From: Escherichia coli
Lineage (GTDB): Bacteria; Pseudomonadota; Gammaproteobacteria; Enterobacterales; Enterobacteriaceae
NCBI RefSeq assembly: GCF_030013205.1
Contig: NZ_CP122648.1
Length of the DNA stretch: 64,000 nt
Strand: one strand, 5' to 3'
Part shown: positions 40,329-41,175 of the stretch, piece after piece
Layout: every line of letters starts with the position of its first letter
How positions within the stretch are numbered: the first letter of the stretch is position 1
Notes under the pieces: model-generated
What the model was told of the DNA's origin: nothing
Seen by the model: only the letters and a program-made list of their open reading frames with translations
The model's database searches: none
Made by a program: the position numbers and the translations under genes

Positions 40329-41175
40329 TAGGGTTCCTGACGTAAATAAATAGCCCGATAACAAATACTCACCAGCACTGCACCGCCGATAATATTACCC
40401 AGCATCACCGGGAGCAGATTGGCGGTAATAAAATGGCTGACCGTCAGTGCCGGAAAATTGTCTGCGCTACTGTGCGCCAGTTGCCAGAAGGGGGAGGGGC
40501 GAAATGGCGAATGGCAATGGCGAACGGAATCACAAACAAATTGGCGATACAGTGCTCAAAGCCACTGGCGACAAACAGGGTGATGGGCAAAATCATGGCG
40601 ACGATTTTGTCGCATAATGAACGCCCGCAATAACTCATCCACAGCGCCAGGCAAACCATCAGATTGCACATAATGCCGAGGCTGACAGATTCAGTAAATG
40701 TATGATGCATTTTGCCCTCGGCGCAGTGTAAAACCGCGACTCCCCACATCGCGTTTTCACTCATCACCAGCCCGGAAAACCAGATTAACAAACTGAAACA
40801 GGCAATACCTGCCAGATTACCGCAGGCCACCAGAAGTGCATTAATCAGCCATGTTCGCCAGCTAATAACGCCCCGACTTTTTGCCATCACCGTCATTACC
40901 GACGAGGTGAACAGGCTGGTGCCGCAAACCGCCAGCAAAATAAAGCCGAGTGTAAAGCAAAGGCCACCCACCAGATGGGTTAATGCCTGTGAAGACGGGG
41001 CATCGGCGATAACGGAAAGGTAAAAAGTAAATCCGATCGCCATAAACACGCCAGCGGACATCGCCATTAAAAAGACCGACACTTTGCTGCGGGCAATTTT
41101 ATGGGCGGCAATCCGTTCAGCGATTGCCGCTTTTCTGGCGCTCAACTGCAAGTCGAAAGAGAGTTTGTTTCTCAT
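40329..41175 (-). pseudogene. focB: Formate channel FocB (FNT family), apparently frameshifted near the C-terminus
   Basis: Track ORF ends prematurely (...HFAPPPSGNWRTVAQTIFRH*) at 40444; another frame from the G/C run at 40491-40500 reads FWQLAHSSADNFPALTVSHFITANLLPVMLGNIIGGAVLVS...LRQEP* with FNT-like motif GNIIGG. Confidence 0.65.

What the first reader, a model, noticed from the sequence alone, without database searches (positions are those of the whole stretch)
40329..40500. focB appears frameshifted in a C/G homopolymer run near its 3' end
The annotated frame terminates early with an unconserved tail (HFAPPPSGNWRTVAQTIFRH-stop). The adjacent frame encodes a canonical formate/nitrite-transporter C-terminus (FWQLAHSSADNFPALTVSHFITANLLPVMLGNIIGGAVLVS...) ending at 40328-40330. 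The shift maps to the run GGGGGAGGGG on the plus strand (40491-40500).
Basis: seen in the sequence. Interest (0 to 1): 0.45.

Follow-up and report, generated by a model that had tools for sequence, protein, structure and literature searches.

The report
One-base frameshift in E. coli focB
The formate-channel gene focB in this pig E. coli sequence is missing one C from a run of six, which breaks its reading frame; this is an ordinary lesion that public annotation already records, and it is most likely a Nanopore sequencing error rather than a real mutation.

Summary
focB lies on the minus strand at 40328-41175. Its tract reads C4-T-C5, where almost all E. coli have C4-T-C6. The ORF therefore ends at 40444-40446 (243 aa), and the conserved last 53 residues, including the final transmembrane helix, sit in the adjacent frame.

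The window belongs to a swine ETEC clone. Its nearest relative, ETEC4079, differs at only three places in 64 kb, and all three touch homopolymers. The focB contraction is the window's only private difference, and every other clone-mate examined except ETEC1701 has C6.

Nine of about 4,290 complete genomes carry this contraction. Four of them come from one Nanopore-only study (R9.4.1, medaka, no short-read polishing), in three unrelated clones whose relatives are all C6 (Fisher p = 2.5e-5). ETEC1701 and B1.H1.1/18 also carry further private homopolymer contractions.

The tract is also a real slippage site. The same 243-aa product is recorded on 426 contigs, in at least seven backgrounds, and a +1 allele exists.

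Verdict: about 0.72 assembly artefact and about 0.25 real private deletion. The consequence would be small either way, because hyfD already carries a nonsense codon in this clone. RefSeq already annotates identical sequences as "focB, frameshifted". Interest is low.

The parts
40328..41175 (-). Whole focB locus (848 nt here, 849 nt when intact). It is the last gene of the hyfABCDEFGHIJR-focB operon.
   Evidence: RefSeq annotates the identical sequence as 'focB, formate transporter FocB, pseudogene, frameshifted' in ETEC1701 and B1.H1.18. It annotates the 849-nt gene as intact WP_001244732.1 in 118UI, ETEC1748 and ETEC4079.
40444..41175 (-). The ORF as it stands: 243 aa, made of FocB residues 1-229 plus a 14-residue out-of-frame tail (SGNWRTVAQTIFRH). 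The TGA stop is at 40444-40446.
   Evidence: This exact protein is already in public collections as P0001, on 426 contigs.
40490..40499 (-). The C-rich tract: C4-T-C5 on the coding strand, GGGGGAGGGG on the plus strand. The contracted run is 40490-40494, which is C6/G6 in intact genes.
40328..40489 (-). The displaced 3' part of focB. Read in the adjacent frame it encodes residues 230-282 (FWQLAHSS...YLRQEP) and the native TAA stop at 40328-40330. It contains the last hydrophobic segment, residues about 249-276, which I take to be TM6.
   Evidence: Kyte-Doolittle profile. Alignment to FocA 3KCU residues 231-281. The Pfam domain spans residues 20-273.
41197..43209 (-). hyfR, intact, immediately upstream in the same operon (context only).
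49903..49905 (-). Context: a nonsense codon in hyfD (codon 148, TGC to TGA) upstream in the same operon. Every clone-mate examined shares it.
   Evidence: 'hyfD internal stop' is annotated in ETEC4079, ETEC1701, ETEC4067 and K_EC180.

Best explanation
The focB frameshift is most likely a consensus error of a long-read (Nanopore-type) assembly. On this reading a G6/C6 homopolymer next to a G4 run (GGGGGGAGGGG) was called one base short, and the strain probably has an intact 282-aa FocB. Shown: the one-base contraction, its position, and its effect on the reading frame. Also shown: it is private to this window within its clone, and the same contraction recurs in Nanopore-only assemblies of unrelated clones whose nearest relatives are all C6. 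Inferred: that the window's own assembly was produced by such a pipeline, and therefore that the missing base is not missing in the DNA.
For: (1) The window and its nearest relative ETEC4079 differ at only 3 places in 64,000 bases, and all three touch homopolymers: AGGGG/AAGGG at 7247, A7/A6 at 15103, and G5/G6 in focB. At 7247 and 15103 the window agrees with ETEC4071, so the focB contraction is its only private difference. There are no clean private substitutions.
(2) The G5 allele does not follow the SNP tree. The window shares 30610T and 45315A with ETEC4079, which is G6. ETEC1701, which is G5, groups with ETEC4067 and K_EC180, which are G6.
(3) The ETEC genomes were sequenced by Nanopore only (R9.4.1, rapid barcoding, Trycycler/flye plus medaka, no short reads; PMC10151945).
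(4) In that study the contraction appears in three unrelated clonal backgrounds, always against C6 in near-identical genomes from other studies. ETEC4089 differs from strain 1223 by this one base in 24 kb, and at least 12 more genomes gave the same BLAST score and span as strain 1223. ETEC4085 differs from rl0044 by this base plus one base at a GATC site. ETEC1701 carries three private indels in 49 kb, all homopolymer contractions, one of which makes a ypfG 'frameshift'.
(5) Enrichment: 4 of at most 94 study genomes against 5 of about 4,196 others, Fisher p = 2.5e-5.
(6) Over 37.7 kb, B1.H1.1 differs from 118UI only by two C-run contractions and no substitutions. B1.H1.18 shares both and adds differences at or next to GATC motifs.
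(7) Published work reports that deletion errors in Nanopore assemblies concentrate in homopolymers and create false frameshifted pseudogenes (PMC12007338).
Against: The sequencing technology of the window's own assembly is unknown, because its genome is not in the complete-genome collection.
The tract also mutates in nature. The exact 243-aa product is on 426 contigs, mostly of 2-50 kb. L018 and L020 are clean assemblies 7 SNPs apart that share the allele. L017, L021 and L022 have no other unexplained indels (their only other indel versus ETEC4079, at 10847, is common to all eight loci). At least seven backgrounds about 1% apart carry a -1 event.
Clonal pairs share the contraction (ETEC1702 with ETEC4089, and B1.H1.1 with B1.H1.18). 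That is unexpected for a purely random error.
In this clone hyfD is already a nonsense pseudogene, so selection on focB may be relaxed and a real loss is plausible.
Confidence: 0.72

Rival explanations
1. The deletion is real. Replication slippage in the C6 run removed one C in this isolate, making focB a pseudogene. Its 243-aa product lacks the last transmembrane helix of the formate/nitrite-transporter fold and is non-functional. The loss costs little because the Hyf (hydrogenase-4) operon is already broken in this clone.
For: The tract is a natural frameshift hot spot. -1 alleles arise by three different events: C4TC5, loss of the T giving C10, and CCCCAACCCCC to CCCCACCCCC. A +1 allele (C7, giving a 236-aa product) also exists. 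L018 and L020 inherit the C5 allele together with hyfD and hyfI frameshifts, and they have 0 indels between them. The product is on 426 contigs. hyfD carries TGC to TGA at codon 148 in the window and in every clone-mate examined, including K_EC180 from an unrelated study. hyf genes are also frameshifted in other lineages, such as strain 1223 and UMNK88.
Against: Within the window's clone the allele is private and does not follow the tree. The window shows no private substitutions in 64 kb, whereas real divergence normally yields more substitutions than indels (the expectation is established knowledge). Sporadic occurrences in complete genomes are concentrated in one Nanopore-only study and co-occur with other homopolymer or GATC errors.
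Confidence: 0.25
2. The gene is functional despite the missing base. A -1 ribosomal slip on C-CCC-CCU (or transcriptional slippage on the C run) restores the frame and yields wild-type APPPF...; on this reading the tract acts as a programmed or phase-variable switch.
For: A -1 shift after the CCU codon would give exactly the wild-type protein sequence (read directly from the sequence). Both -1 and +1 length variants exist in nature. About 580 draft contigs end exactly at the tract (P0003 and P0004), which could reflect length heterogeneity within a culture.
Against: About 99.8% of complete genomes that have the locus (all but 9 of about 4,290) lack this contraction. The 90 nt downstream fold no better than shuffles (z = -0.01). 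From the sequence, T-CCC-CCU is not a canonical X-XXY-YYZ slippery heptamer, and C5/C6 is far shorter than known slippage tracts (established knowledge). Some intact alleles break the homopolymer altogether (CCCCTACCTCC and CCCCAACCCCC), which argues against a conserved switch.
Confidence: 0.02

Closest known systems
E. coli FocB (formate channel paralogue of FocA, encoded at the end of the hyf operon; formate/nitrite transporter family, Pfam PF01226)
   Same: Residues 1-229 in frame and residues 230-282 in the adjacent frame are identical to WP_001244732.1. The synteny hyfR-focB, then convergent yfgO, then bepA is the same. There is a strong match to the FocA structures 3KCU and 3Q7K. PMC11841067 describes FocB as the FocA paralogue of the hyf operon.
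   Different: One C is missing, so the sequence as written encodes a 243-aa product that lacks the last hydrophobic helix and about the last fifth of the Pfam domain.
RefSeq 'focB pseudogene, frameshifted' records (ETEC1701 NZ_CP122938.1; B1.H1.18 NZ_CP146564.1; B1.H1.1 NZ_CP146571.1; ETEC4089; ETEC4085)
   Same: ETEC1701 and B1.H1.18 have a focB gene identical to the window's, contraction included, and B1.H1.1 matches the 901-nt query exactly. ETEC4089 and ETEC4085 show the same contraction in other focB alleles.
   Different: Nothing at the locus differs. The window is a further assembly, in the ETEC4079 sub-lineage, that carries the contraction.
Nanopore R9.4.1 homopolymer under-calls that produce false frameshifted pseudogenes
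   Same: A one-base contraction of a 6-mer run. It is private to single assemblies, does not follow the tree, is enriched in a Nanopore-only study, and is accompanied by other contractions and GATC-linked miscalls in the carrier assemblies.
   Different: The window itself shows no second private error in 64 kb, and its sequencing platform could not be established.
Natural homopolymer-slippage pseudogenes in decaying operons (hyf in E. coli)
   Same: Several lineages carry inherited frameshifts in hyfB, hyfC, hyfD, hyfI and focB. This clone has a hyfD nonsense codon.
   Different: In those lineages the lesion is shared by relatives. In the window's clone it is not.

Membership tests
Formate/nitrite transporter family (FocB) | Significant match to Pfam PF01226 Form_Nir_trans over nearly the whole protein | tested here: met
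   E = 2.6e-64, residues 20-273 of the restored 282-aa protein. The ORF as written keeps only residues 1-229.
Formate/nitrite transporter family (FocB) | Homology to solved FocA channels, including the C-terminal helix | tested here: met
   3KCU E = 3.7e-86, aligned over residues 6-280. The segment 230-280 is encoded in the window only in the adjacent frame.
Formate/nitrite transporter family (FocB) | Genomic position as the last gene of the hyf operon, after hyfR | tested here: met
Formate/nitrite transporter family (FocB) | A single uninterrupted ORF encoding all six transmembrane helices | tested here: not met
   the frame breaks after residue 229, and the last hydrophobic segment (about residues 249-276) is out of frame.
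Long-read homopolymer assembly artefact | The difference is a length change of a homopolymer of at least 5-6 bases | tested here: met
   G6 to G5.
Long-read homopolymer assembly artefact | Absent from the nearest relatives and not following the substitution tree | tested here: met
Long-read homopolymer assembly artefact | The same site is miscalled repeatedly in long-read-only assemblies of unrelated strains | tested here: met
   Fisher p = 2.5e-5.
Long-read homopolymer assembly artefact | The source assembly was made from Nanopore reads without accurate-read polishing | not testable with these tools
   The window's genome is not in the complete-genome collection. This is inferred only from its near-identity to the ETEC4079 and ETEC4071 assemblies.
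Long-read homopolymer assembly artefact | Accurate reads from the same isolate show the longer run | not testable with these tools
   No read data are available.
Genuine slippage pseudogene | The lesion is inherited by related strains (it follows the tree) | tested here: not met
   Not met for the window's clone. It is met elsewhere, for L018 and L020.
Programmed ribosomal frameshift or phase-variable tract | The shifted arrangement is the conserved state, with a slippery motif plus a downstream stimulatory structure, or a long tract | tested here: not met

The most novel reading that the evidence does not exclude
The 11-nt C-rich tract of focB (C4-T-C6) could be a genuine slippage-prone on/off site. 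On this reading E. coli populations repeatedly lose FocB, and occasionally regain it, through the tract. The window's deletion would then be real. The hundreds of draft contigs that end exactly at the tract would reflect mixed tract lengths within cultures rather than sequencing trouble.
Probability: 0.04. Interest if true: 0.35.

Novelty: already known. Interest (0 to 1): 0.07.

Why it matters
It matters mainly as a data-quality flag. Anyone counting pseudogenes or inferring loss of formate transport or hydrogenase-4 function in swine ETEC from this assembly would be misled if the base is simply under-called. The comparison also picks out GGGGGGAGGGG in focB as a site-specific trouble spot that is miscalled in several public 'complete' genomes. 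If the deletion is real, its consequence is small, because this clone's hyf operon already carries a hyfD nonsense codon. FocB is also only a paralogue of the main formate channel FocA, which lies outside this window and was not examined here.

Tried and rejected
(1) I first built a pure-artefact case from the three complete genomes with the identical 901-nt sequence. The exact-protein look-up then showed the truncated product on 426 contigs, which forced a mixed conclusion: the tract is both a natural hot spot and an error site.

(2) I tried to isolate short-read assemblies of the window's own clone through its HyfR allele. That allele is widespread (3,340 blocks), so the look-up did not isolate the clone.

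(3) I looked for a paper describing B1.H1.1 and B1.H1.18 to learn their sequencing platform and found none. Their Nanopore-like nature is inferred from the error pattern only.

(4) I tested rescue by ribosomal frameshifting by folding the 90 nt downstream of the tract (z = -0.01). Rejected.

(5) I first read the C10 allele of L017 and L022 as a T-to-C change plus a deletion. The BLAST result (one gap, no mismatch) shows it is simply loss of the T.

(6) I could not identify the window's source genome. No record in the complete-genome collection is identical to it.

(7) ECZP248, OZ510750.1 and FCI56, the other complete genomes with C5, were not examined individually.

Full report
**What is in the sequence**

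On the minus strand, an ORF at 40444..41175 encodes 243 aa ending ...AIAIRHFAPPPSGNWRTVAQTIFRH*. The adjacent frame, translated from 40328-40501, reads ...FWQLAHSSADNFPALTVSHFITANLLPVMLGNIIGGAVLVSICYRAIYLRQEP*, with its stop at 40328-40330.

The flanking genes identify the locus as the 3' end of the E. coli hyf operon. They are bepA, yfgO (convergent), hyfR and the hyf genes. Intact focB is 849 nt and 282 aa (WP_001244732.1), whereas the window's copy is 848 nt.

Alignment shows a single missing base in the second C run. The coding strand reads GCC CCT CCC CC[C] TTC TGG. On the plus strand the tract is G5 at 40490-40494, A at 40495 and G4 at 40496-40499. All other elements of the observation are confirmed.

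**What the truncation would remove**

The restored protein matches Pfam Form_Nir_trans over residues 20-273 (E = 2.6e-64). It matches the FocA structure 3KCU over residues 6-280 (E = 3.7e-86). The frame breaks after residue 229.

The lost part, residues 230-282, holds the last hydrophobic segment at about residues 249-276 (Kyte-Doolittle profile). It aligns with FocA residues 231-281. From established knowledge of the six-helix formate/nitrite-transporter fold, this segment is the sixth transmembrane helix, so a 243-aa product should not form a channel. That last step is inference.

**Where the window comes from**

The window is E. coli of a swine ETEC/STEC clone. Its closest complete genome is ETEC4079 (NZ_CP122643.1). 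Across all 64,000 bases the two differ at three places:
- AGGGG vs AAGGG at 7247;
- A7 vs A6 at 15103;
- G5 vs G6 in focB.

ETEC4071 agrees with the window at the first two sites. The focB contraction is therefore the only change private to the window.

Substitutions define sub-lineages. The window and ETEC4079 share 30610T and 45315A, while ETEC4067, K_EC180 and ETEC1701 carry C and G at those sites. ETEC1701, on that other branch, also has G5, whereas ETEC4067 and K_EC180 on that branch and ETEC4079 on the window's have G6. The allele therefore does not follow the tree inside the clone.

**Evidence that sporadic G5 calls are a Nanopore artefact**

The ETEC genomes come from a study that used Nanopore reads only. 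It used R9.4.1 flow cells, rapid barcoding, and Trycycler or flye with medaka 1.5.0, without short-read polishing (PMC10151945).

A 71-nt query across the tract finds nine complete genomes with the contraction, out of about 4,290 that hold the locus. They are ECZP248, ETEC4085, ETEC4089, ETEC1701, ETEC1702, B1.H1.18, B1.H1.1, OZ510750.1 and FCI56. Four of the nine come from that one study of 94 isolates (Fisher p = 2.5e-5).

| Carrier | Compared with | Differences found |
|---|---|---|
| ETEC4089 | strain 1223 (at least 12 more genomes gave the same BLAST score and span) | only the focB base, in 24,071 nt |
| ETEC4085 | rl0044 | the focB base plus one base at a GATC site |
| ETEC1701 | ETEC4067 | three indels in 49 kb, all contractions (G6 to G5, A7 to A6, T8 to T7); the last makes a private ypfG 'frameshift' |
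| B1.H1.1 | 118UI | two C-run contractions and no substitutions, in 37.7 kb |
| B1.H1.18 | 118UI | the same two contractions, plus differences at or next to GATC motifs |

FDAARGOS_1288 is identical to 118UI over that same 37.7-kb backbone. Published analyses describe this error class: homopolymer deletions in Nanopore assemblies that create false frameshifted pseudogenes (PMC12007338).

**Evidence that the tract also mutates in nature**

The exact 243-aa product is already in the large protein collection. It is found on 426 contigs from NCBI, Logan and ENA, most of them 2-50 kb long.

Eight fetched loci show that the same protein arises from three different events:
- C4TC5;
- loss of the interrupting T, giving C10;
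- CCCCACCCCC, derived from the CCCCAACCCCC allele.

L018 and L020 are 7 substitutions apart, have no indels between them, and share the focB, hyfD and hyfI frameshifts. That is an inherited, real allele. The other loci are about 1% apart from one another, so at least seven backgrounds are involved.

A +1 allele also exists: C7, giving a 236-aa product, in L031 and in P0005, P0007 and P0013. Some intact alleles break the run altogether, namely CCCCTACCTCC and CCCCAACCCCC.

Two of the fetched carriers, L016 and L023, are themselves very noisy assemblies, with 8 and 41 indel columns respectively.

**Weighing the two explanations for this window**

In favour of an artefact:
- The change is private and does not follow the tree.
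- The window has no private substitutions in 64 kb.
- The site is demonstrably miscalled in sister assemblies from a Nanopore-only pipeline, at a rate (at least 4 in 94) far above the frequency elsewhere (about 0.1%).

In favour of a real deletion:
- The tract is a natural hot spot.
- Clonal pairs (ETEC1702 with ETEC4089, and B1.H1.1 with B1.H1.18) share the call, which is unexpected for a purely random error.
- This clone's hyf operon is already broken. hyfD has TGC to TGA at codon 148 (49903-49905), which every clone-mate examined shares, including K_EC180 from an unrelated Korean study. Selection on focB may therefore be relaxed.

The platform of the window's own assembly could not be determined, because no identical record exists in the complete-genome collection. 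I put about 0.72 on artefact, about 0.25 on a real private deletion, and about 0.02 on any form of translational or transcriptional rescue.

Rescue is unlikely for four reasons. All but 9 of about 4,290 genomes lack the contraction. The downstream RNA folds no better than shuffles (z = -0.01). The tract is short. It is not a canonical slippery heptamer.

**Comparison with what is known, and novelty**

The gene is FocB, the FocA paralogue of the hyf operon (PMC11841067). NCBI's pipeline already annotates identical sequences as 'focB, frameshifted' pseudogenes, and the truncated protein has GenBank accessions. Both candidate mechanisms, homopolymer under-calling and replication slippage in a homopolymer, are textbook. 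Nothing here is new, and interest is low. The practical value is as a flag that this base, and the same base in several public 'complete' genomes, needs checking against accurate reads.

Noticed in passing
window 48907-50346 (hyfD, minus strand); stop codon at 49903-49905: hyfD carries an in-frame nonsense codon (codon 148, TGC to TGA). ETEC4079, ETEC1701, ETEC4067 and K_EC180 all share it, so hydrogenase-4 is genuinely inactivated in this swine clone, upstream of focB in the same operon.
   Followed up: yes
window about 26174-28416 (pdeF): pdeF is annotated 'frameshifted; internal stop' in every clone-mate examined, including K_EC180, and it is intact in 118UI and B1.H1.x. This looks like a real lineage pseudogene. 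I did not map the lesions in the window itself.
   Followed up: partly
window 7247 and 15097-15103: Two more homopolymer-linked differences between sister assemblies: AGGGG vs AAGGG at 7247, and A7 vs A6 in a terminator-like AAAAAAAGCCCGC. The states are distributed discordantly: the window and ETEC4071 have A7, while ETEC4079 and K_EC180 have A6. This is probably assembly noise in one or the other.
   Followed up: partly
window 1-23300 (prophage); junctions near 4356, 4990 and 5834: A degraded podovirus-like prophage (T7 gp14-type core protein, Bbp16 cement protein, SLT transglycosylase). Relative to ETEC4071 it lacks about 8 kb holding terminase, portal and part of the capsid genes. ETEC4079 shares the same deletion, and K_EC180 has a different, larger one.
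   Followed up: partly
window about 24422-25119 (IS1) and about 57504-57962 (IS200C tnpA): An IS1 copy sits beside a truncated yfgH-like glycine-zipper gene. An IS200C transposase lies between bamC and purC. Both are as annotated in ETEC4079.
   Followed up: no
proteins P0003 (225 aa, 495 contigs) and P0004 (224 aa, 87 contigs): About 580 public draft contigs end exactly at the focB C-tract: these 'partial' FocB proteins stop at ...AIAIRHF. Either short-read assemblers have trouble at GGGGGGAGGGG, or tract lengths are mixed within cultures.
   Followed up: no
L007 (ETEC1701) 46086 and 41329; L012/L013 (B1.H1.18/B1.H1.1) 29011, 7054, 31223-31224: Other probable consensus errors in public 'complete' genomes. 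These include a T8-to-T7 contraction that makes ypfG a 'frameshifted' pseudogene in ETEC1701, a C5-to-C4 contraction in the purN-ppk1 spacer of both B1.H1 genomes, and differences at GATC motifs, one of which changes the ppx protein accession in B1.H1.18.
   Followed up: partly
L024, L026, L029, L033 (tract CCCCTACCTCC); L030, L032 (CCCCAACCCCC): Some E. coli lineages carry intact focB alleles in which the C run is interrupted, changing APPPF to APTSF or APTPF. These alleles should be less prone to slippage and to miscalling.
   Followed up: no
L034/L036 (ETEC4089, strain 1223) hyfC and hyfD; L035/L037/L038 (ETEC4085, UMNK88, rl0044) hyfB; L018/L020 hyfD, hyfF, hyfI: Independent, inherited frameshifts in different hyf genes occur in several E. 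coli lineages. The hyf operon appears to be decaying repeatedly across the species.
   Followed up: partly
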